A DNA stretch of 63,179 nt from an uncultured Bacilli bacterium. Lineage in GTDB: Bacteria; Bacillota_I; Bacilli_A; RF39; UBA660. The notes under the pieces were generated by a model. It was not told where the DNA came from. It worked only from the letters and a program-made list of their open reading frames with translations, and ran no database searches. The stretch spans positions 1 through 63,179 of the forward strand of contig CATKZK010000004.1 in the NCBI GenBank assembly GCA_949841325.1, written 5' to 3'. The translations under genes and the position numbers were made by a program. This document shows positions 1 through 25,176 of this stretch, in pieces. Numbering within the stretch: the stretch's first letter is position 1; each line of letters opens with the position of its first letter.

Positions 1-2
1 AA

Positions 3-92
3 CTTGATGTACTACAAGGATATTATCATGGGGATATTAGCATAAATCATGCAGATGATTATGTTGAGAGAATAAAGAGATTAGTTCGCTAA
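3..92 (+). CDS. 3' end of a gene entering from outside the window (partial, ...LDVLQGYYHGDISINHADDYVERIKRLVR*)
   Basis: Open frame from the window edge to TAA at 90-92, translated by hand; product unknown. Confidence 0.5.
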   Translation, partial: LDVLQGYYHGDISINHADDYVERIKRLVR

Positions 93-211
93 ATTACAAT
101 TTTTCGAGCAGATTAATTTATAAAAATTAGTCTGTTTTTGTTCCTAAAATTATAAAATTATGCTATATTTATATTAGTTAGTAATTTTTACTACCTACTA
201 TTGCTTTTGAG

Positions 212-244
212 AAAAGTTATTCGACTTCTTCTTCACAGGCACCA
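212..244 (+). repeat. tRNA-3'-end-like repeat copy A (AAAAGTTATTCGACTTCTTCTTCACAGGCACCA)
   Basis: Ungapped 20/33 match to copy E; ends in GGCACCA; followed by the AAAACAAAC/GTTTGTTTT hairpin. Confidence 0.5.
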
Positions 245-401
245 TGTGGTTATAAAACAAACAAAAATGTTTGTTTTTAGATAAATTTATAGGTGTGATT
301 TTATGATAAAAAGATTGATATTTGAGTCAATTTATGAAAAAAATGATAGTCTATGTAAGTTATATTTTTATAATTAATGCAAATCCACAACTAAATACGA
401 A

Positions 402-433
402 GTAGTTTGTTTTTGATTTCGTCAGGTCCACCA
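402..433 (+). repeat. tRNA-3'-end-like repeat copy B (GTAGTTTGTTTTTGATTTCGTCAGGTCCACCA)
   Basis: 26/32 identical to copy C; ends in TCCACCA. Confidence 0.7.
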
Positions 434-495
434 ATTGTGATTTCTATTCGAGTATTGAATTTTAATAATATATAATTAGTTTAGAAGGTGGGTAT

Positions 496-1140
496 ATGCG
501 ATTTGAAAATGAACACTTTATAATAAAATATACAGAATCTGATGTTGGATATATAGATGAGGCTATAGAAAGACTAAATAATAAATATGATGAATATACA
601 GAATTTTTTGGTGTTGGAGAATTGCCAGAGAAAGTTAAATTTATTCTTTATAATGATTTGGGAACGTTTAGAGAAAAAATGCTAGCTAGTTATGGGCATG
701 TTAAAGAAACTACTGTTGGTCATGCACATGGAAATTTAGTTGAAATATTAACATTAAATGAGCGAAAGAAAATAGAGATACATAAAAATAGTACTAAAGA
801 GATAATTATTATGACATTTGCTCATGAATTATTACATATTTTTCATACGTTTTATAAAGGAAATAATAGAAATTCTTGGTTTGCGGAAGGATTAGCGATA
901 AATTTAGGTAGTCCAAGATATGAGCTAGGTTTAATTGATTGTACTCCTGCTGATTTAATTAACAGAAAGGGTAAGTCTCGTCATTTCTTCGCTATGGTTA
1001 AATATATGTTAGATAACATGTCTCATGAAAATGTCCTTGAATATTCTAAAAATGATGATTTAGTTATAGAACACACCGAAGAAATATATAATTTAGCTAA
1101 CGAGTGGATAAAAAGTTTAAACAAAGGTAATAGCAGATAA
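496..1140 (+). CDS. Gluzincin-type zinc metallopeptidase (peptidase MA-like)
   Basis: HELLH (HExxH) followed by WFAEGLA third-ligand motif; RBS GAAGGTG. Confidence 0.75.
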   Translation: MRFENEHFIIKYTESDVGYIDEAIERLNNKYDEYTEFFGVGELPEKVKFILYNDLGTFREKMLASYGHVKETTVGHAHGNLVEILTLNERKKIEIHKNSTKEIIIMTFAHELLHIFHTFYKGNNRNSWFAEGLAINLGSPRYELGLIDCTPADLINRKGKSRHFFAMVKYMLDNMSHENVLEYSKNDDLVIEHTEEIYNLANEWIKSLNKGNSR

Positions 1141-1205
1141 ATGTTGCTGAATAATCGTATGAATTATATTTTTATAATTAATAGGAAGCCATCATTAAAA
1201 ACTAT

Positions 1206-1237
1206 GTAGTTTGTTTTTGACTCTATCAGGGCCACTA
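1206..1237 (+). repeat. tRNA-3'-end-like repeat copy C (GTAGTTTGTTTTTGACTCTATCAGGGCCACTA)
   Basis: Direct repeat of copy B; shares CTCTATC-GGGC with copy D. Confidence 0.7.
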
Positions 1238-1412
1238 ATATTGAAATTTTATTATTTTTAATTTTATATGAATATAGATGATTTAAATGGGATTGGGGCA
1301 TTTAAGATTAAGAAAGATTCTAAAACAAAGAAACAATGTATAATGAAATCATAACACTAGAGGAAATGGTTACTGATCTTTATAAATAATTGACTATTTA
1401 ATATCAGAGAGA

Positions 1413-1490
1413 TAAGTTGTGTTGTACTTCTCTATCGGGCACCAGATAGATAGGAAACTCGAACTTTCTATTTTTGCGGAGTTCGAGTTT
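1413..1490 (+). repeat. Repeat copy D with trailer (…GTTGTACTTCTCTATCGGGCACCAGATAGATAGGAAACTCGAACTTTC…AGTTCGAGTTT)
   Basis: 1442-1468 is 26/27 identical to the reverse complement of 25079-25105 (tRNA-Cys CCA plus trailer); perfect 11-bp inverted repeat AAACTCGAACT/AGTTCGAGTTT. Confidence 0.8.
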
Positions 1491-1618
1491 TAATGTACTT
1501 AAATTTATGGTATAATGTTTTTGAAGATTAAATTAAGTTATGTCAATTTAGTAAATACACTTGCTAATAGACAGCAGTCAATTAGCGTGTTAATTATTTT
1601 TGGAGGTATAAATTAATT

Positions 1619-2337
1619 ATGGATAAAGATTTAATTGTTAAAGATATTTCACAAATTGATTTGAAACACTCTTTTTTCATTATACAAATAAACAAAATTT
1701 AGATACTATTCTAAAAAATGGCCTTGAACCAAGAATTGGAGAAAATGCTTTATATGTTGAAAAAACACCAAAAATATTCTTTGCTGAAGGTGAAAAAGGG
1801 ATTGTAACTATTATGGATGTTTGGTTGAAATGGTTAACTGGAAAAATTAGTACTAGCAAATTTAAGTATTGGTTTGGAACAGCAATTTATATGAAAATAC
1901 CTTTTTGTATTAAAAGTATTCCAAATAATATGGTTAAAAAATCTTTAGATTCTAAAGAAAAGCGTTTAAAGGCATATGTAAAAATGAAAGAAATTTTGGA
2001 TAACAGTATTTTTCTCGTTTTAGATTTAAAAGAAAATATTGACTTTGATTATAACGATACAGATGAAGTGAAGAAGACATACTATGAAAGCTTTTTAAAA
2101 TTATTGTATCTTAGTGATAGCGACTTAAAAGATAATAAAATGGAATATTGGAATATGCATACTTATTCAAATAAAGCTATAAAACCTCAAAAAATTTCAT
2201 TGCTAAAGCATAATGATAATTATGATGTGAATAACATATTAATTAGTATAATAGAAAAAGATATAAAATATATCAAAAATAATTACGAATTTTTATATGA
2301 ATATTATATTTATATTCAGAGTTTAAAAAGTTGTTGA
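1619..2337 (+). pseudogene. Frameshifted gene with an ADP-ribosyltransferase-like N-terminal motif (FHYT-x4-L-x2-IL-x2-GL-x-P)
   Basis: RBS GGAGGT at 1602-1607 and ATG at 1619; one extra T in the T6 run at 1672-1677 joins this start to the 1813..2337 frame (…KHSFFHYTNKQNLDTILKNGLEPRIGEN…). Confidence 0.65.
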
Positions 2338-2380
2338 ACGTCCTTCCTTAGGGCAGCAGATTGATTATTAGTTGAACTTT
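2325..2380 (+). repeat. Repeat copy E with trailer (AAAAAGTTGTTGAACGTCCTTCCTTAGGGCAGCAGATTGATTATTAGTTGAAC)
   Basis: 28/34 identical to copy G (reverse complement of 24075-24108); overlaps the TGA stop of the upstream gene. Confidence 0.8.
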
Positions 2381-2464
2381 TTCGGCTATTAGCAAACAGA
2401 AAATTTAGAATTTGACATATCGATATAAGTATAGTAAACTTATACCAGTTGGAGGTAATAGACT

Positions 2465-2557
2465 ATGAAAAATATAATTGTAAATAATAACTTATTATTA
2501 GCCTTATTATTAAACCGATTATGTAGTAATGGGTCTATTTTGAGTGCTATTAAATAA
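2465..2557 (+). CDS. Leu-rich leader peptide MKNIIVNNNLLLALLLNRLCSNGSILSAIK (30 aa)
   Basis: RBS GGAGGT about 8 nt upstream; TTA TTA TTA GCC TTA TTA TTA AAC CGA TTA; directly upstream of LeuRS; absent from the ORF track. Confidence 0.8.
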   Translation: MKNIIVNNNLLLALLLNRLCSNGSILSAIK

Positions 2558-2614
2558 AAAAATAAAGCAATTCAATAGAGTCAATACTACATTTAAGTAT
2601 TGGCTCTATTTTTT
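2523..2614 (+). promoter_or_regulatory. Transcription attenuator (antiterminator 2523-2548 with 2566-2590; terminator 2574-2614)
   Basis: 15-bp stem AATAGAGTCAATACT/AGTATTGGCTCTATT (one G-U pair) plus U tract; its 5' arm can alternatively pair with GTAGTAATGGGTCTATTTTGAGTGCT inside the leader ORF. Confidence 0.75.
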
Positions 2615-2638
2615 ATTAAAAAGAAAGGAATGATTAAA

Positions 2639-5050
2639 ATGTATAATTTTAGAGAAATTGAAAAGAAATGGCAAGGTAAATGGTATAACGAAAAGAGTTT
2701 TAAAGCAATAGATTTTCATCCAACCAAACCAAAATATTATGTTCTATATGAGTTCTATAATATTAGTGGTAATCTACATATGGGGCATTTGAAAGGAACA
2801 GTCCCTGCAGATGCATTAGCTAGAATGAAAAGACTTCAAGGATATAATGTATTGTTTCCAATAGGTGGGGATTCTTTTGGATTACCTGCAGAAAATGCAG
2901 CTATAAAAACTGGTATCAATCCTAAAGATTTTGTTGATAATGGAATGAAAAATGCAATAGAGCAATCTAGAAAAATTGGACTTTCATTTGATTATGATAG
3001 AAGTTTTTGTACTAGTGATGAAGATTATTATAAATGGACACAATGGATTTTTCTTCAACTTTTGAAAGAAGGTAAAGCATATAAGGAGAAAGGTGTTGTA
3101 AACTATTGTCCAAATTGTAAGACAGTACTTTCGAATGAAGATAGTCAAGGTGGAGAATGTGATAGATGTCATGGTCAAGTCGTACAAGAAGAAAGATGGG
3201 TTTGGTTTCTAAAAATGAAAGAATACTCTGAAAAACTACTTGGAAATATTGAGAGAATTGATATGAATGAAAATCTAAAAGAACTTCAAAGAAATTGGAT
3301 AGGAAAATCAGAAGGTATGCAAGTGTCTTTTGATATAGTAGATGAAAATAATAATGTAATTGATAATGCTGGTATATTTACTACTTGTGTAGAAACTATT
3401 TATGGTATTACTTTTCTTGTAATGGCTCCAGAGCATAATTTTATTGAAGAACACAAAAATAAAATTCTAAATTATGATGAAGTATGTGAATATAAAAAAG
3501 AAACATCATATAGAAGTGAACTGGATAGAATGGCTAATCAAAAGGAAAAAACAGGTTGCCTTGTTCAAGGAATCTATGCAATAAATCCTGTTAATAATAA
3601 AAAAGTTCCTATATATCTAGCTGACTTTGTTCTTTCAGGATACGGTACAGGTATAGTTATGGCTGTTCCTACTCATGATCAAAGAGATTATGAATTTGCA
3701 AAAAAATTTAATATACCAATGATTCAAGTAATTGAAGGAAATACTGAAAATCAAGCAGTTGAAAAATACGAATATATAAAAGATAATAGTAAAATGTTAA
3801 ATTCTGAAGAATTTACTGGAATAAATGTGAAAGACGCTAAAGAAAAAATTGCAGATAAACTTATTGAAATGGGTGTTGGTAAAAAGCAAATAAATTATAA
3901 AATGCAAGATTGGTCATTTAATAGGCAAAGATATTGGGGCGAACCTTTTCCAGTCGTTTTCTGTGATAAATGTGGTATAGTCCCGGTTCCAGAAAATGAA
4001 CTTCCAATTACTTTGCCTAAAACAGAAGATTATATGCCAAATGAAAAGGGAAATTCTCCACTTTCTAAAATAGAAGATTGGGTAAATTGTAAATGTCCTA
4101 AATGTGGAAAAAAGGCAAAAAGAGAAACTGATACTATGCCAAACTGGGCAGGTTCTTCTTGGTACTGGCTTAGATATTGTGATCCTCATAATAATGAATC
4201 ACTTGCTGATATAGAAAAACTAAAATATTGGGGAAGTGTTGATTGTTATACAGGAGGTACTGAGCATATAACTCGACATGTTCTATATGCATTCTTTTGG
4301 CAAAATTTTTTATATGAAATAGGTGCAGTTCCTACAAGAGATCCATTTAAAAGAAAAATGGGAAGTGGATTGATTCTTGATGATACTGGAAAGAAAATGA
4401 GTAAGAGTTCTACAAATGGTGTATCACCAATAGAAGTAATTGATAAATATGGTAGTGATGTTGCAAGACTTCATGTTCACTTTTTGGCGGCATATGAAGA
4501 TAATACTCCTTGGACATATGATGGAATAAATGGCATAACTAATTTTATAGATAAAGTTTGGAATTTGCAAAATATGATTAAGGGTACTGAAATCTCTACT
4601 GAACATATTTATGAAACCAATAATTTGATAAAGAAAGTAACAGAAGATATAGAAAATCTTAAACTTAATACTTGCATATCAGCTTTTATGACTTTTATAA
4701 AAAAAATTAAAGAAGATAAATTTATAAGTAAAGAAGAACTAAAAACATTCCTAGTATTATTAAATCCTTTGGCTCCCCATATTACAAGTGAAATGTATGA
4801 AATAATTTTTAAAGAGAATATTATAGATGTAGAGTGGCCTAAATTTGATGAGAATTATTTAATTCGTGATGAAATTAATCTTCCTATTCAGATAAATGGA
4901 AAAATGAAAAAAACACTGTCTGTTAGGAAAGATGCTACCCAAGATGAAGTTATAAATTTCATAAAGAATACATATCCAGAATTAATATGTGGTGAAATTA
5001 AAAAAATTATTTACATTCAAGGTAAAATAATCAATATAATGTGTAAATAG
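2639..5050 (+). CDS. leuS: Leucyl-tRNA synthetase, divergent
   Basis: HMGH and KMSKS class I motifs; GDSFGLPAEN; CP1 editing motif GYGTGIVMAVPTHDQRD; Zn knuckles; C-terminal PIQINGK; start moved to ATG 2639 behind RBS AGAAAGGA. Confidence 0.92.
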   Translation: MYNFREIEKKWQGKWYNEKSFKAIDFHPTKPKYYVLYEFYNISGNLHMGHLKGTVPADALARMKRLQGYNVLFPIGGDSFGLPAENAAIKTGINPKDFVDNGMKNAIEQSRKIGLSFDYDRSFCTSDEDYYKWTQWIFLQLLKEGKAYKEKGVVNYCPNCKTVLSNEDSQGGECDRCHGQVVQEERWVWFLKMKEYSEKLLGNIERIDMNENLKELQRNWIGKSEGMQVSFDIVDENNNVIDNAGIFTTCVETIYGITFLVMAPEHNFIEEHKNKILNYDEVCEYKKETSYRSELDRMANQKEKTGCLVQGIYAINPVNNKKVPIYLADFVLSGYGTGIVMAVPTHDQRDYEFAKKFNIPMIQVIEGNTENQAVEKYEYIKDNSKMLNSEEFTGINVKDAKEKIADKLIEMGVGKKQINYKMQDWSFNRQRYWGEPFPVVFCDKCGIVPVPENELPITLPKTEDYMPNEKGNSPLSKIEDWVNCKCPKCGKKAKRETDTMPNWAGSSWYWLRYCDPHNNESLADIEKLKYWGSVDCYTGGTEHITRHVLYAFFWQNFLYEIGAVPTRDPFKRKMGSGLILDDTGKKMSKSSTNGVSPIEVIDKYGSDVARLHVHFLAAYEDNTPWTYDGINGITNFIDKVWNLQNMIKGTEISTEHIYETNNLIKKVTEDIENLKLNTCISAFMTFIKKIKEDKFISKEELKTFLVLLNPLAPHITSEMYEIIFKENIIDVEWPKFDENYLIRDEINLPIQINGKMKKTLSVRKDATQDEVINFIKNTYPELICGEIKKIIYIQGKIINIMCK

Positions 5051-5108
5051 TATTAAAAATTGTTTCGATTCTTAGAAATAGTGTTATAATTATTTTAATA
5101 TTCATTGG

Positions 5109-5204
5109 TAAAGTTGTAGATTACTTCTCCAATGGCACTAGATTGATTGTTACTCGAACCTTTCAGTGAGAGTGAAAGCGACTTGATAAAAACACGTTTT
5201 TATG
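5109..5204 (+). repeat. Repeat copy F with extended trailer
   Basis: TAAAGTTGTAGATTACTTCTCCAATGGCACTA-GATTGAT..ACTCGAAC; 5179-5204 is 22/26 identical to the tRNA-Cys terminator hairpin (reverse complement of 25037-25062) at nearly the same spacing from the CCA-like end. Confidence 0.75.
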
Positions 5205-5288
5205 ATATCACGAATTTTGTAAAGGGCACTTGCATAACAAAAAAAGGGAATACTTAACATTGAAAAGTTGAGTACTCACCAAATTGGT

Positions 5289-5328
5289 ATGCACTTAATC
5301 TTGTTTTGATTGAGTGCATTTTCTTTTT
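5289..5328 (+). terminator. Intrinsic terminator
   Basis: ATGCACTTAATC/GATTGAGTGCAT stem followed by TTTCTTTTT. Confidence 0.7.
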
Positions 5329-5413
5329 ATAATTCATTATTATTTAATAATAGAAGAATAGGTAGAATGGCAATAACGATTAAAGTAACGATTAGAGAAT
5401 CTTTCATAGTCAT
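5327..5413 (-). CDS. Putative 28-aa hydrophobic peptide MTMKDSLIVTLIVIAILPILLLLNNNEL
   Basis: ATG 7 nt after the stop of the 5421..6353 gene; one TM-like stretch; weak RBS. Confidence 0.35.
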   Translation of the reverse strand: MTMKDSLIVTLIVIAILPILLLLNNNEL

Positions 5414-5420
5414 TTTTCAA

Positions 5421-6353
5421 TTACTTTCTTCTTTTTTCAGTTGTATAATCTGAAAATTTACTTATTTTTGCTGATGATAGTTTGGATAATAAATCTTTTT
5501 GTAAAATTTCTATTTCTTTTTTTGTTATTTCTTGATTTTCTAAATAATATAAATTTTTAACAAAATCATATATACTTATTTTATTTTTCTTTTGTAAAAG
5601 TGATTTTGCAAAAACAAATCTTCCAACTTGGGATATTAAATCATAAAAATTCTTTTCTATTCCTTTTTTTTCAAAGAAATTGTATATAGTATCAAAAAAT
5701 ACATCCCATTGACTATTGGAAATTTCTAATGGTGGTAGATTATACACAATAGCATAAGCATCTATTTCTCTTACTACTTGTACCATAGTTTCCTCTTTAT
5801 CTAGATAATTTGTATCATTTTCAATAAGTGTTAAGTTTGGATAGTCCTTATTTATCTGTCTTTGTTGTTTTTCTAAAGCTTCTCTATATTTTTTTTCTTT
5901 TTCCGTTTCAACATAAGTTTCTTCTTTCTTTATGAAGGATTCATATTTTTCGCTATAGAAATCTTTTCCTTTTGCTTTTCCAATACCTTCTTGCAATATT
6001 TTATCTACGTCCTTTTCTTGTTCGATTTCAAAAATATTAGAATTGGATTTATAATGATTTGAAATTAAACTTTTTGCTTCAATAATAAAATCTTTAGTTA
6101 AAGTTGCAATAGTTCCAACACCAGTTATACTTGAACCGATGATTAATATAGTCGGATTTTTAAAAATTAAAAATCCAATATATGATAAAATTAGTGGACC
6201 AATAAATAAAACAACTTTCTTTAATCTACTTCTTAAATCTTTTTTCATAGCATTATCAAAGTTGTTTATAAAATCTTCCATTTGAACTAATTGAATTTCT
6301 GCATTTAAATTTTTAATTTTCTTTTTATCGTTTTTTTTATTCATATAAATCAC
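5421..6353 (-). CDS. Hypothetical membrane protein (two N-terminal TM helices)
   Basis: 310-aa ORF with two hydrophobic segments; no family recognised. Confidence 0.6.
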   Translation of the reverse strand: MIYMNKKNDKKKIKNLNAEIQLVQMEDFINNFDNAMKKDLRSRLKKVVLFIGPLILSYIGFLIFKNPTILIIGSSITGVGTIATLTKDFIIEAKSLISNHYKSNSNIFEIEQEKDVDKILQEGIGKAKGKDFYSEKYESFIKKEETYVETEKEKKYREALEKQQRQINKDYPNLTLIENDTNYLDKEETMVQVVREIDAYAIVYNLPPLEISNSQWDVFFDTIYNFFEKKGIEKNFYDLISQVGRFVFAKSLLQKKNKISIYDFVKNLYYLENQEITKKEIEILQKDLLSKLSSAKISKFSDYTTEKRRK

Positions 6354-23109: not shown

Positions 23110-23787
23110 CTAACTTGTTTTAGATTTTGAAAATTTGTGTTTATCTTCTAAGTGATTATTTTCACTTAACTCATCACTATCTAAAGATTCAGGAAATGAA
23201 TATAGACCTAATAATTCTGTCTTCAAATTTTCTAAATCTTTTAGTTCTGATGCAATACTTTTCTCTTGTGTTTCGGTTTCAGCACTTGAATCCTCTTGTT
23301 TTTTCAAATATGCTTTAGTTTCTTCAACAGGTGTTATTGTTTTTATATCTTTAGAGAATTGTTCAATCAAAGGTAGAATCTCATCAATTGCCTTATTAGC
23401 AAACAGATACACTTTTCTACCTAGAATGTTTCTAAAAGGCTTAATTATAGGTTCTCTTTTATCATCTCCAACATTCCAAAAAGCAATACCATAATTTTCA
23501 CTAAAAATTGTTCCTGTACCATAATCACTCATAGAACTACAAAAGTTAAATTCAAAAGGTTTATCCATTACTTGACCTTCAGTTTCTACGAATACATATT
23601 GTTCCGTATAACCCTTATAAGATGTAAATTTAACTTTTGAACCTTCAGCTGTTTTTAGTGTTGCTCTACTTCCTTCTTGATTATACATATTAGTTTTAAA
23701 TTCATCATTCATGTTTTCATATACATAAGATGTAACAGCAGACTTAATTTGCTCTAACTTGTCTGCAATTTCTTTATTATTTAACAT
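23110..23787 (-). CDS. Hypothetical protein
   Basis: 225-aa ORF, RBS AAGGGGG, hairpin terminator downstream. Confidence 0.6.
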   Translation of the reverse strand: MLNNKEIADKLEQIKSAVTSYVYENMNDEFKTNMYNQEGSRATLKTAEGSKVKFTSYKGYTEQYVFVETEGQVMDKPFEFNFCSSMSDYGTGTIFSENYGIAFWNVGDDKREPIIKPFRNILGRKVYLFANKAIDEILPLIEQFSKDIKTITPVEETKAYLKKQEDSSAETETQEKSIASELKDLENLKTELLGLYSFPESLDSDELSENNHLEDKHKFSKSKTS

Positions 23788-24110: not shown

Positions 24111-24659
24111 TTATAATTTATTCATAATTTTCACAAATTCATTTTTTAAATTGTTACTTGGATCAACTATTATTTTTACGTCTTCTAGTAAATTAACAGT
24201 GTTTGTATTTCCTAGTAGCCAAACAGGAAATGCGTTATATTCTTCATTGTCAATCATACCATATATTTTCCAATAATTATTCTCTTTATACATTACAACA
24301 TAGTAATAATCATTTTGTGTAAACCCAAAGTTAGACTTTCCAACATATTGAACAATACCCCATAAATCCTTATTATTTAGTTTAATCATAGAATTTTTAA
24401 AATCCACAATTTCTTGCTTAATTTTTGGATATTTTACAAGCCATTCATCAATTATTTGATAGAAATCTTGATAAGTTTTATATCTATAATAAGGATACGT
24501 ATTAATCATATTAGTATATTCTTCAATCTTTCTTAACAAAACTTCATTCCAAACAAACATTTCTTCATTATATTTTCGATGATATTTTAAAACATTATAT
24601 TTCTTATGAGTTTCTGGAATATAAATATTACTTATAATTTTATTATTATTGAACATCAT
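24111..24659 (-). CDS. Hypothetical protein (cargo between tRNA-Cys and repeat G)
   Basis: 182-aa ORF, RBS TGGAG. Confidence 0.6.
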   Translation of the reverse strand: MMFNNNKIISNIYIPETHKKYNVLKYHRKYNEEMFVWNEVLLRKIEEYTNMINTYPYYRYKTYQDFYQIIDEWLVKYPKIKQEIVDFKNSMIKLNNKDLWGIVQYVGKSNFGFTQNDYYYVVMYKENNYWKIYGMIDNEEYNAFPVWLLGNTNTVNLLEDVKIIVDPSNNLKNEFVKIMNKL

Positions 24660-24825
24660 TCGTCTCCAATCATATTGTCTTTGACAATATGCAAGTGTAT
24701 TTTTTAAATTGACATAGTTCAGTCAATTTTATTATGTTATATAAATTTATTCAGTATAATTCTTGTAGGCAATATCAGTTGTTGAGTGTCCGCCGAATCT
24801 CTTATAGTGAAGCGGTTTGATAAAA

Positions 24826-24924
24826 ATGAAAACTAAGACTTTTGTAGTGAAAGTTCTAAAGCTCATTGCTATCATTTTATTTCTCCTTATCATTATGATA
24901 GTAGTTATAAAAAATGACACTTAA
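24826..24924 (+). CDS. 32-aa single-TM peptide, type I toxin-like (MKTKTFVVKVLKLIAIILFLLIIMIVVIKNDT)
   Basis: Hand-translated; TTGACA promoter at about 24709, structured 5' UTR (CCGC…GCGG), hairpin over the stop. Confidence 0.5.
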   Translation: MKTKTFVVKVLKLIAIILFLLIIMIVVIKNDT

Positions 24925-25036
24925 TTCTTCATTGAATTAAATGTCGATCTAATTAATTTGGGTAGACATTCAATATTGCAAAACTGAATGTTCCCTTTTT
25001 TATTTTATGCAAGTTTCCTTGACGTATTCATAATAA

Positions 25037-25102
25037 CATAAAAACGACTTTTTGACAAGTCGTTTGGTATTGTTACTCGAAAGTTCGAGTTTCCTATCAA
25101 TC
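25037..25102 (-). terminator. tRNA-Cys trailer: ACTCGAA-CT-TTCGAGT palindrome plus AAACGACTT/AAGTCGTTT terminator
   Basis: Two inverted repeats directly 3' of the tRNA CCA; homologous to repeats D and F. Confidence 0.7.
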
Positions 25103-25176
25103 TGGAGGGGCCTAACGGATTTGAACCGATGATCAGGGAGTTGCAGTCCCACGCCTTACCACTTGGCTAAAGCCCC
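25103..25176 (-). tRNA. trnC: tRNA-Cys (GCA)
   Basis: 74 nt, GGGGCTT acceptor stem, anticodon loop CTGCAAC, T-loop GGTTCAAATCC, U73 discriminator, encoded CCA. Confidence 0.97.

What the first reader, a model, noticed from the sequence alone, without database searches (positions are those of the whole stretch)
212..5281. Integron-like array of single-gene units delimited by tRNA-3'-end-like repeats
Seen: at least six same-strand degenerate ~33-nt repeats (212, 402, 1206, 1413, 2325, 5109, possibly a shortened one at 5263) with the pattern AAAAGTTGTTG..AC.TC.....GGGCACCA. Each interval holds one unit: a remnant ORF, a zinc peptidase, a remnant, an ART-like frameshifted gene, and a leader plus LeuRS. 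Most units have their own promoter-like hexamers just after the repeat, and copy E overlaps the stop codon of the preceding gene. Known: tyrosine integrases often target tRNA 3' ends and leave duplicated fragments; integron attC sites follow cassette stop codons. Inference: iterative capture of promoter-bearing cassettes at tRNA-like att sites by a recombinase acting in trans (none in the window), which would be an undescribed cassette system.
Basis: partly seen in the sequence, partly recalled or inferred. Interest (0 to 1): 0.88.

Follow-up and report, generated by a model that had tools for sequence, protein, structure and literature searches.

The report
Scars of tRNA-end-targeting mobile elements
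The repeats are real: they are attachment-site junctions left by small mobilizable elements that use a large serine recombinase to insert exactly at the CCA end of tRNA genes, here stacked in a decayed, recombinase-less array around the leucyl-tRNA synthetase gene of a mouse-gut bacterium.

Summary
Six same-strand repeats (A–F) are confirmed. The seventh (5263) is not a copy. Each repeat has two parts. The left part is a hairpin that mimics a tRNA acceptor/T-arm minihelix and ends in ...GCACCA. The right part is a trailer (GATTGATAGG + hairpin, often a terminator).

The same trailer follows the real tRNA-Cys in this window. In over 120 metagenome contigs it starts exactly after the CCA of more than 12 tRNA species, tmRNA, or the same pseudo-tRNA hairpin. 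Downstream of it lie a small ORF, a 640-aa large serine recombinase, a Mob_Pre relaxase and one or two cargo genes. The element ends with the pseudo-tRNA hairpin. These are 4.5–7 kb integrative mobilizable elements, often in tandem.

The window array has no recombinase or relaxase. It is best read as tandem accretion followed by decay (cis-mobilizable remnants). LeuRS is a core gene, not a cassette. A related contig (L096) carries the same junction types around different genes, and one of its hybrid junctions is broken exactly at CACCA.

It was wrong about a tyrosine integrase and an integron-like system. I found no description of this element family.

The parts
164..244 (+). Junction A, left arm: element right-end arm with a pseudo-tRNA minihelix, ending in ...CAGGCACCA
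   Evidence: It aligns in the same register with the right ends of intact elements with a serine recombinase, L167 (87-90% in blocks) and L129 (90% in one 30-nt block). It folds as a hairpin with a free CCA tail, z=-2.9.
245..289 (+). Junction A, right side: trailer TGTGGTTATAAAAC plus a terminator hairpin
   Evidence: It is 94% identical to L096 7933-7983, which follows the right end of the element inserted at tRNA-Thr(GGT).
360..433 (+). Junction B, left arm (B/C type), ending in ...GGTCCACCA
   Evidence: 90% identical to L096 8885-8956 and 78% identical to copy C. In run X23, raw reads diverge exactly at 432/433 into two other trailers (18 reads).
434..470 (+). Junction B, degenerate trailer (ATTGTGATTTCTATTCGAGT...)
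   Evidence: Read directly from the sequence. It is absent from the L096 hybrid junction.
496..1140 (+). Cargo gene, 214 aa, HExxH motif, function unknown
   Evidence: No Pfam family. Only a distant tblastn match, in L051.
1164..1237 (+). Junction C, left arm (B/C type), ending in ...GGGCCACTA; the trailer is degenerate
   Evidence: 81-nt direct repeat with B at 78% identity. 74% identical to L096 8885-8958.
1403..1444 (+). Junction D, left arm: pseudo-tRNA hairpin ending in ...TCGGGCACCA
   Evidence: Regular-expression and profile hits.
1445..1563 (+). Junction D, trailer GATAGATAGGAAACTCGAAC plus terminator hairpin, then a promoter and operator-like region
   Evidence: The 20-mer matches the search pattern that lands right after the CCA of tRNAs in over 120 contigs. 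79% identical to L096 8954-9080. The operator motif is shared with other loci.
1619..2337 (+). Cargo gene, disrupted here (two in-frame stops and a frameshift)
   Evidence: Three ORF pieces in the window. An intact 239-aa gene sits at the same place in L213 and L216. No Pfam or PDB match.
2321..2358 (+). Junction E, left arm (E type, AGTTGTTGAACGTCC...GGGCAGCA), overlapping the stop codon of the cargo gene
   Evidence: The same arm sits right after stop codons in L096, L108 and L120. Raw reads diverge at 2355 into other trailers.
2359..2400 (+). Junction E, diverged trailer GATTGATTATTAGTTGAAC plus hairpin
   Evidence: 80% identical to the F trailer over 30 nt (family D6). The hairpin AGTTGAA/TTCGGCT covaries with ACTCGAA/TTCGAGT (read).
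2408..5050 (+). leuS locus, a core gene and not a cassette: promoter, Leu-rich leader peptide (2465-2557), terminator (2574-2610) and LeuRS (2639-5050)
   Evidence: Pfam LeuRS domains. Nucleotide homology to L005, L006 and L008 spans 2408-2458 to 5047-5061 only. The leader is conserved in L005 and L007.
5063..5140 (+). Junction F, left arm: promoter (TTGTTT-N17-TATAAT) plus a pseudo-tRNA minihelix ending in ...GGCACTA
   Evidence: The fold has z=-3.1 with a 7-bp outer stem. It is conserved in L007 and L151, which also carry the GATTGAT-N-ATCAAT inverted repeat.
5141..5420 (.). Junction F, trailer of the toxin-antitoxin class: hairpin, terminator-like hairpin, about 150 nt of + strand RNA ending at the terminator 5289-5319, and a convergent 28-aa hydrophobic ORF (5327-5413, - strand)
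   Evidence: It is a paralogue of the region downstream of tRNA-Cys (L007 5894-6316 matches window 25105-24674 at 71%). The same module is in L107, L108 and L209. Terminator. ORF.
24674..25176 (-). Reference copy: real tRNA-Cys (25103-25176), followed exactly after CCA by the trailer GATTGATAGGAAACTCGAAC..., then a toxin-antitoxin-like module (32-aa ORF at 24826-24924, + strand)
   Evidence: ARAGORN and Rfam tRNA. Sequence. Translation.

Best explanation
Each repeat is a recombination junction of a family of small integrative mobilizable elements found in gut Bacilli/Mollicutes-like bacteria.

An intact element (4.5-7 kb) is laid out as follows:
- It starts exactly after the CCA of a tRNA or tmRNA gene with a conserved trailer (GATTGATAGG, a hairpin, then a terminator).
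- It then encodes a small ORF, a 640-aa large serine recombinase, a Mob_Pre relaxase and one or two cargo genes.
- It ends with an arm that holds an outward-facing promoter, a GATTGAT/ATCAATC inverted repeat and a pseudo-tRNA minihelix. The 3' strand of that minihelix copies 5-11 nt of the target tRNA's acceptor end plus CCA.

Inferred mechanism: the serine recombinase crosses over inside the shared CACCA/CCA. The tRNA stays intact, and the element supplies its new trailer and terminator.

The new left junction again looks like a target site (a tRNA-like half plus a trailer half). Further elements can therefore insert there, giving tandem arrays whose internal junctions read 'pseudo-tRNA arm + CCA | trailer'.

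The window holds six such junctions. The units between them have lost the recombinase and relaxase and keep only a trailer, a promoter, one gene or a remnant, and the next arm. They are cis-mobilizable remnants (CIMEs). The array abuts both sides of the core gene leuS.

Shown: the homology, the anatomy, the exact CCA breakpoints, tandem arrays elsewhere, and the absence of a recombinase here. Inferred: that the serine recombinase acts on these sites, the crossover position, and that the units decayed rather than arriving as minimal cassettes.
For: - The trailer 20-mer lies directly after the CCA of real tRNAs (Gly, Leu, Thr, Cys, Arg, Phe, Ala), of tmRNA 3' ends, and of the pseudo-tRNA hairpin. 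This holds in 6 viral contigs and in the 120 metagenome stretches the scan returned before it stopped at its limit. It includes the tRNA-Cys of this window.
- Downstream of the trailer, a large serine recombinase is found in 28 of 64 loci and a Mob_Pre relaxase in 38 of 64. Pfam confirms Resolvase + Recombinase + Zn_ribbon_recom and Mob_Pre.
- Two complete elements, L167 and L101, contain no tyrosine integrase.
- Element right ends carry the pseudo-tRNA arm, followed either by a native terminator (L096, L155, L104) or by the trailer of the next element (L167, L129, L126, L200, L194).
- Window arm A aligns in register with the right ends of L167 and L129. D and F hit a profile built from other contigs.
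- L096 has A-, B-, D- and E-type junctions in the same order around different genes. It also has a B-arm/D-trailer hybrid whose switch point lies in CAC(C/T)A.
- Raw reads in X23 diverge exactly at the CCA of B and E into other trailers.
- Neither a serine recombinase nor a relaxase is in the window or in L001.
- Tandem accretion and cis-mobilizable remnants are established concepts (PMC5704250).
Against: - No tRNA gene heads the array. The nearest one, tRNA-Met, lies 3 kb upstream in L001 and has an ordinary terminator rather than this trailer.
- No remnant of a recombinase or relaxase gene survives in any unit. Decay from full elements is therefore assumed, not seen.
- The units are tidy (trailer, promoter, one gene, arm), which random decay does not predict.
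- Canonical large serine recombinases do not recombine two attP-like sites. Yet the difference between L096 and the window requires an event between two internal junctions.
- No recombination has been demonstrated. No empty target site for the same tRNA was recovered. No excision junctions appeared in the reads, although depth was only about 1-5x.
Confidence: 0.72

Rival explanations
1. This is an active cassette system driven by a serine recombinase, integron-like in function. The small units (trailer, promoter, gene, pseudo-tRNA arm) are themselves the mobile entities. A recombinase supplied in trans excises them as circles and inserts them at any junction, so the array is a gene-shuffling platform rather than a graveyard.
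For: - The same junction types flank different genes in the window and in L096. One junction pair differs by a 1.0-kb, two-unit insertion or deletion with breakpoints exactly at CACCA.
- E-type arms sit right after stop codons of unrelated genes in four contigs.
- Left arms and trailers occur in many combinations.
- Units are compact and carry their own promoter and operator.
- Small arrays without a recombinase recur elsewhere (L126, L200, L124/L198/L203, L108, L120).
Against: - Order and content are identical in all seven contigs of this species.
- No circular or deletion junctions were seen in the reads.
- Several trailers (A-C) are degenerate and two units are mere remnants.
- Recombination between two attP-like sites is not known for canonical large serine recombinases.
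- There is only one hybrid junction as evidence (n=1).
Confidence: 0.17
2. The repeats are mainly RNA-level elements. They are transcribed tRNA-like minihelices plus a hairpin and terminator that act as processing, stabilising or termination signals between genes (a tRNA-punctuation-like role). They would have spread by duplication, and their link to mobile elements would be secondary.
For: - F and the tRNA-Cys copy have their own promoters.
- Many arms fold into a hairpin with a free CCA tail, and the outer stem covaries with the acceptor-like 3' strand (mean z=-1.28 over 30 arms).
- Trailers contain terminators.
- There is no promoter between the trailer's terminator and the small ORF and recombinase, so the arm or the tRNA is transcribed upstream of them.
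Against: - No tRNA or Rfam family is detected.
- B, C, D and E fold no better than shuffled sequence.
- The motif is absent from about 1.2 Mb around leuS in 80 related genomes, apart from L007 and one tRNA-Gly.
- Its distribution follows recombinase-bearing elements and their ends.
- RNA contigs gave no sign of processing.
Confidence: 0.08
3. These are classical direct repeats left by a tyrosine integrase: duplicated 3' fragments of one tRNA gene, left by phages or islands (the 'known' part of the first reader's idea).
For: Prophages do leave true 24-nt tRNA-Cys 3' fragments next to the same trailer. In L088, tail genes and an endolysin are followed by the fragment and then the trailer.
Against: - The window arms contain no T-loop or real tRNA sequence beyond 5-9 nt of the acceptor end.
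- They fall into at least three arm types.
- No tyrosine integrase is present in the intact relatives.
Confidence: 0.02
4. The similarity arises by chance in AT-rich DNA.
For: The copies are degenerate (54% mean column identity in a naive alignment).
Against: - The shuffle test.
- Hits from an independent profile.
- 90-94% identity of three junctions to L096.
Confidence: 0.01

Closest known systems
Tandem accretion of integrative mobilizable elements and their decayed derivatives (CIMEs), as described for streptococcal ICE/IME islands (Pavlovic 2004; Bellanger 2011; review PMC5704250)
   Same: Several units lie head to tail, each bounded by att-like repeats. The units have lost integrase and transfer genes but keep the sites. 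Mobilisation by a recombinase in trans is possible.
   Different: The described cases use tyrosine integrases, with repeats that duplicate the 3' end of the target gene. Serine-integrase IMEs were reported to insert within genes and disrupt them (PMC5357655). Here the recombinase is a large serine recombinase, the target is the CCA end of tRNA/tmRNA, and the repeat is an element-borne pseudo-tRNA arm.
Tn4451/Tn4453 mobilizable transposons of clostridia (TnpX large serine recombinase + TnpZ Mob_Pre relaxase)
   Same: Both have the same two-gene core (large serine recombinase and Mob_Pre relaxase) and a small size. Both have an outward promoter at one end that would read across the joint of the circular form towards the recombinase. 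I recall this for Tn4451; I infer it here from the sequence.
   Different: Tn4451 ends in GA dinucleotides and has loose target choice. The present family inserts exactly at tRNA CCA ends and carries a pseudo-tRNA arm. The recombinase is under 35% identical to anything in the plasmid and phage collections.
SCC composite islands of staphylococci (CcrAB/CcrC serine recombinases; repeats at the 3' end of rlmH)
   Same: Both use serine recombinases and insert at the 3' end of a conserved gene without destroying it. The target sequence is regenerated, so elements stack. Arrays include units without a recombinase (pseudo-SCC).
   Different: The target (rlmH versus tRNA/tmRNA), the site anatomy, the unit size (tens of kb versus 0.2-7 kb) and the host clade all differ. 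The comparison is from memory and was not tested here.
Integron gene-cassette arrays
   Same: Both are same-strand arrays of mostly single-gene units, with a structured recombination site just after the stop codon of the gene.
   Different: There is no IntI tyrosine recombinase, no attI, no Pc promoter and no attC structure. The units carry their own promoters. The associated recombinase belongs to the serine family.

Membership tests
Integron | IntI-type tyrosine recombinase gene with an adjacent attI site and Pc promoter at the head of the array | tested here: not met
   No recombinase is found in the window or 3.6 kb upstream. Upstream genes are an alpha/beta hydrolase, a DUF3781 protein and an IS110 transposase.
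Integron | attC sites: imperfect palindromes with R''/L''-L'/R' boxes and a GTTRRRY core | tested here: not met
   The repeats are a pseudo-tRNA arm ending in CCA plus a GATTGAT trailer. No Rfam or attC-like match.
Tandem accretion / CIME array of site-specific elements | Units bounded by sequences homologous to the two ends of intact elements that encode the recombinase | tested here: met
   The trailers of D, E and F match left ends of elements. Arms A, D and F match right ends of elements that carry the recombinase.
Tandem accretion / CIME array of site-specific elements | Units lack their own integration and transfer genes | tested here: met
   tblastn with the recombinase and relaxase finds nothing in the window.
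Tandem accretion / CIME array of site-specific elements | The array is anchored at the specific target gene (here a tRNA or tmRNA 3' end) | tested here: not met
   No tRNA lies next to A. tRNA-Met, 3 kb upstream in L001, has a different trailer. In L096 the homologous array is anchored at tRNA-Thr(GGT).
Tandem accretion / CIME array of site-specific elements | Content varies between related genomes by whole units | tested here: inconclusive
   Content is identical in seven same-species contigs. It is replaced by a recombinase + relaxase element in L007. L096 differs by whole units.
Large-serine-recombinase att sites | Recombinase with Resolvase + Recombinase + zinc-ribbon domains encoded next to one element end | tested here: met
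   L167, a 640-aa ORF starting about 0.4 kb from the trailer. This holds in relatives, not in the window.
Large-serine-recombinase att sites | Only a short identity between the partner sites around the crossover | tested here: met
   The shared sequence between the tRNA end and the arm is 5-11 nt (CACCA up to CACCCGCACCA).
Large-serine-recombinase att sites | Demonstrated recombination with a 2-bp staggered crossover | not testable with these tools
   This needs an in vitro or in vivo assay.
Tn4451-type mobilizable transposon | Large serine recombinase plus Mob_Pre relaxase | tested here: met
   (in relatives only).
Tn4451-type mobilizable transposon | GA dinucleotide ends and low target specificity | tested here: not met
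   In the loci returned by the trailer search the junction is at tRNA/tmRNA or pseudo-tRNA CCA, with few exceptions.
tRNA gene or tRNA-like RNA family | Cloverleaf or a curated covariance-model match | tested here: not met
   ARAGORN and Rfam find only tRNA-Cys at 25103-25176.
Type I toxin-antitoxin (module next to F and next to tRNA-Cys) | Small hydrophobic peptide gene with a convergent or overlapping small RNA and a shared terminator | tested here: inconclusive
   Conserved 26-32-aa hydrophobic ORFs and a convergent promoter and terminator are present. There is no Pfam match and no RNA evidence.

The most novel reading that the evidence does not exclude
The pseudo-tRNA minihelix plus conserved trailer is a self-regenerating recombination site. 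It would let a large serine recombinase treat tRNA ends, element ends and internal junctions as equivalent partners. That would make these arrays a true gene-cassette exchange system built on a serine recombinase and tRNA mimicry. The mimic may also act at the RNA level, as a processing signal that gives the recombinase transcript the same 5' end whether it is read from the tRNA promoter or from the element's joint promoter.
Probability: 0.2. Interest if true: 0.85.

Novelty: new variant of a known kind. Interest (0 to 1): 0.6.

Why it matters
tRNA 3' ends are the textbook targets of tyrosine integrases. Serine-recombinase mobilizable elements have been described as disrupting the genes they enter. 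Here a widespread gut family appears to use a large serine recombinase to insert exactly at the CCA of at least a dozen tRNA species and of tmRNA. Each element carries its own acceptor-stem mimic matched to its target.

If the site logic is confirmed, it would do three things:
- explain how small gene arrays build up next to tRNA and other genes in reduced-genome gut Bacilli;
- give a natural series of serine recombinases whose target choice seems to be set by a short, readable sequence (the acceptor strand), which is of interest for genome engineering;
- show a second route, besides integrons, to arrays of single-gene units.

For annotating this window, it means that region 1-5420 is a mobile-element scrapyard around a core leuS gene.

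Tried and rejected
- **Rfam and ARAGORN.** Rfam at gathering and permissive thresholds, and ARAGORN, found nothing in the repeats.
- **Near-identity searches.** Searches of the plasmid and phage collections with 1-5600 found nothing.
- **Fixed-register pattern.** It found only D, because the copies differ by insertions and deletions.
- **First viral scan.** A scan with a long gapped pattern found nothing.
- **Riboswitch, T-box or LicT-type antiterminator (RAT) site.** These were leads from memory. I dropped them because the downstream genes are unrelated and no family matched.
- **Left end of an IS200/IS605-type single-strand transposon (target NCCA, subterminal hairpin).** I dropped this because the linked gene is a serine recombinase and no TnpA or TnpB is present.
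- **Trailer as a general tRNA trailer of this clade.** Rejected: 33 of the 35 tRNAs in the window and loci held at that point lack it.
- **Copy G (5263).** Rejected as a member.
- **LeuRS as a cassette.** Rejected.
- **Remnants of recombinase or relaxase in the units.** None found.
- **Read evidence.** The raw-read run has only about 1-5x depth for this organism, so the absence of excision joints says little. RNA runs are held as contigs and were uninformative.
- **Function of the cargo genes.** Pfam, PDB and PHROG searches gave nothing for the cargo genes or the small ORF upstream of the recombinase.

Full report
**Observation.**
Region 1-5420 of the window (29.6% G+C) holds six degenerate repeats on the + strand. 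Their ...CCA-like ends lie at 244, 433, 1237, 1444, 2358 and 5140. A strict regular expression matches four of them. It finds nothing else on either strand of the 63-kb window, against 0.49 matches expected (0 of 200 dinucleotide shuffles reach four). ARAGORN and Rfam see no tRNA or known RNA family in the repeats. The only tRNA in the window is tRNA-Cys at 25103-25176 on the - strand.

**The key lead.**
In D, E and F the similarity continues past the CCA, as GAT(A/T)GAT...(A/T)C(T/G)(C/T)GAAC followed by a hairpin. The same sequence, GATTGATAGGAAACTCGAAC, starts exactly after the CCA of the real tRNA-Cys of this window. It also follows a tRNA-Gly(GCC) in a related genome, L068. The whole F region (promoter, hairpin, trailer, about 200 nt, and a convergent 28-aa hydrophobic ORF) is a paralogue of the region downstream of tRNA-Cys.

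**How widespread it is.**
I scanned public collections with the 20-mer. It returned 6 viral contigs, and it returned 120 metagenome stretches before the scan hit its limit. In nearly all of them the 20-mer begins right after a CCA. That CCA belongs to one of four things:
- a real tRNA: Gly-GCC, Gly-TCC, Leu-CAA, Leu-TAG, Leu-GAG, Thr-CGT, Thr-GGT, Cys, three Arg species, Phe or Ala;
- a tmRNA 3' end;
- a short true fragment of a tRNA 3' end;
- a recurrent hairpin, aAAGTTGTAGATAaCTACGaCAnnnGC(A/T)CCA, which is the family the window repeats belong to.

Most tRNAs in related genomes do not carry this trailer. It is therefore not a general tRNA feature.

**What the trailer belongs to.**
Downstream of the trailer come, in order:
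- a rho-independent terminator;
- a conserved ORF of 88-96 aa with no known family;
- a roughly 615-640-aa protein with Resolvase, Recombinase and zinc-ribbon domains, i.e. a large serine recombinase, seen in 28 of 64 loci with enough flank;
- a Mob_Pre relaxase, seen in 38 of 64 loci.

Two fully delimited elements are L167 5127-9750 and L101 6325-11400. They add only one or two cargo genes (one carries a Phd/YoeB pair) and hold no tyrosine integrase. These are small integrative mobilizable elements.

Their right ends hold three features: an outward-facing promoter-like sequence, a GATTGAT-N6-ATCAATC inverted repeat, and the pseudo-tRNA hairpin ending in CCA. After that comes either a native-looking terminator (L096, L155, L104) or the trailer of a second element (L167, L129, L126, L194, L200). 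The latter are direct examples of tandem insertion.

The sequence shared between the occupied tRNA's end and the hairpin's end is only 5-11 nt (CACCA up to CACCCGCACCA). That fits a serine recombinase better than a tyrosine integrase.

True 24-nt tRNA-Cys fragments next to the trailer come from a different source. In L088, a prophage (tail genes, endolysin) inserted into an already occupied tRNA.

**The pseudo-tRNA arm.**
Many arms fold into a long hairpin. An outer stem of 5-8 bp has a 3' strand that is the acceptor-like core. An inner 7-bp stem (GTTGTAG/CTACGAC) has a 4-nt loop, and the CCA tail is free. The outer stem changes on both sides from element to element (for example ATTGG/CCAAT, TGCCGAG/GTCGGCA, TGTCCTAA/TTAGGGCA). 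The mean z-score over 30 arms is -1.28. A and F are clearly structured (z about -3), while B-E are not. Whether this matters as DNA (an inverted repeat for a recombinase dimer) or as RNA (a minihelix mimic) cannot be told from sequence alone.

**Placing the window copies.**
- Arm A aligns in register, in blocks across about 80 nt, with the right ends of elements L167 (two blocks) and L129 (one block). Its right side (TGTGGTTATAAAAC plus terminator) is 94% identical to what follows the right end of the element at tRNA-Thr(GGT) in L096.
- D and F are hit by a profile built only from other contigs (E=2e-6 and E=1.7e-7).
- B and C are a separate arm type, which is 90% conserved in L096.
- E is a third type. 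It is also found directly after the stop codons of unrelated genes in L096, L108 and L120.
- The proposed seventh copy at 5263 lies in the toxin-antitoxin-like region and is conserved as part of that region. It is not a junction.

**What lies between the junctions.**
- A-B: about 115 nt. This is what remains of a unit that still holds a gene in L096.
- B-C: a 214-aa protein with an HExxH motif and no family.
- C-D: a 28-aa ORF.
- D-E: a gene that is broken here but is an intact 239-aa gene in other strains.
- E-F: leuS. This is not a cassette. Nucleotide homology to three related species starts between the promoter and the leader (2408 in L005, 2458 in L006, 2450 in L008) and ends at the stop codon.

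No recombinase or relaxase, and no remnant of one, is in the window or 3.6 kb upstream.

**Variation between genomes.**
Seven contigs of the same species (identical LeuRS or 214-aa protein) have the same order. They differ only by an IS110 insertion and by pseudogenes.

The sister lineage L007 (LeuRS 97% identical) keeps F. Upstream of the leuS promoter, however, it has a serine recombinase and a Mob_Pre relaxase in place of A-E.

L096 has this order: tRNA-Thr | element | A-type junction | a different gene | B-type arm joined to D-type trailer | a C26 glutamine-amidotransferase gene | E-type junction | further genes. The window differs from that B/D hybrid by a 1.0-kb, two-unit segment. The segment's ends fall inside CAC(C/T)A. 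This points to a recombination event between internal junctions.

In a 2026 mouse-gut run, reads matching arms B and E diverge exactly at the CCA into other trailers. So arms and trailers are combined in many ways in nature. No excision joints of this locus were seen, but depth for this organism was only about 1-5x. RNA data were uninformative.

**Interpretation.**
The repeats are junctions of the form 'right arm + CCA | left-end trailer', from a family of mobilizable elements that target tRNA and tmRNA ends and use a serine recombinase. The window array is best explained by serial insertion at such sites followed by loss of the recombinase and relaxase modules. This is the tandem accretion and cis-mobilizable remnant pattern described for other elements (PMC5704250).

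The literature I could search describes serine-integrase mobilizable elements as inserting within genes, and tRNA 3' ends as targets of tyrosine integrases (PMC5357655; PMC5704250). I found no description of this family. Its recombinase is under 35% identical to anything in the plasmid and phage collections.

A more novel reading remains open at about one chance in five: that the small units are themselves exchanged as cassettes by the recombinase acting in trans.

**Verdict.**
The finding is a new variant of a known kind, of moderate to high interest.

Noticed in passing
window 2412-2640: leuS is preceded by a promoter, a 30-aa leader peptide rich in leucine (MKNIIVNNNLLLALLLNRL...) and a strong terminator (2574-2610). 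This looks like a leader-peptide attenuator rather than the T-box usual for aminoacyl-tRNA synthetase genes in Firmicutes. The leader is conserved in L007 and L005 (MKNISIKRNLLLDLLLNRL...).
   Followed up: partly
window 5141-5420 and 24674-25102: There are two paralogous modules that look like type I toxin-antitoxin systems. Each has a 28-32-aa hydrophobic ORF (5327-5413 on the - strand; 24826-24924 on the + strand) convergent with a roughly 200-nt transcript that starts at a tRNA or pseudo-tRNA and ends at a shared terminator. The motif AGTTGAGTnCTnACC occurs both in that transcript and in the 5' leader of the ORF. Homologous peptides (M.KKDFLIL.L..II.LL) are in L007, L107, L108 and L209. There is no Pfam match.
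   Followed up: partly
window 24950-25176 (- strand): The real tRNA-Cys carries the element-type trailer, but no recombinase or relaxase follows it. The next genes (24111-24659 and 23110-23787) have no known family. This is probably a second decayed insertion in the same window.
   Followed up: partly
window 1541-1600 and 24674-24720; L096 9055-9100; L108, L120, L161, L123, L126, L177: A conserved motif, GTCAATTTAG(T/A)AAAnACACTTGCA, is followed by a palindrome (ATTGACAAAGTCAAT-like) just upstream of unrelated cargo genes. It looks like a shared promoter and operator for an unidentified repressor.
   Followed up: no
L001 1246-2451 (3.6 kb upstream of the window start): An IS110-family transposase, with about 280 nt of non-coding sequence upstream of it, is present in contig L001 but absent from the otherwise identical L002. 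This is an insertion polymorphism between a tRNA-Met and the DUF3781 and hydrolase genes.
   Followed up: no
window 1619-2337 versus L213 2513-3232 and L216 819-1538: The gene between D and E has two in-frame stops and a frameshift in the window strain, but is an intact 239-aa ORF in two other strains with identical LeuRS. The 310-aa ORF at 5421-6353 is conversely split in L213. This indicates ongoing gene decay in the region.
   Followed up: partly
L096 3271-3543; L167 5224-5490; L088 9211-9501: A conserved 88-96-aa ORF (MTIETKELVISEELKRKVEMICRFA...) always sits between the trailer's terminator and the serine recombinase gene, with no promoter of its own. It has no Pfam or PHROG match. It is a candidate directionality factor or regulator.
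   Followed up: partly
L088 7824-9130: The end of a prophage (tail fibre genes, endolysin) is followed by a true 24-nt tRNA-Cys 3' fragment and then the element trailer. The same tRNA ends therefore collect both phages and the serine-recombinase elements.
   Followed up: partly
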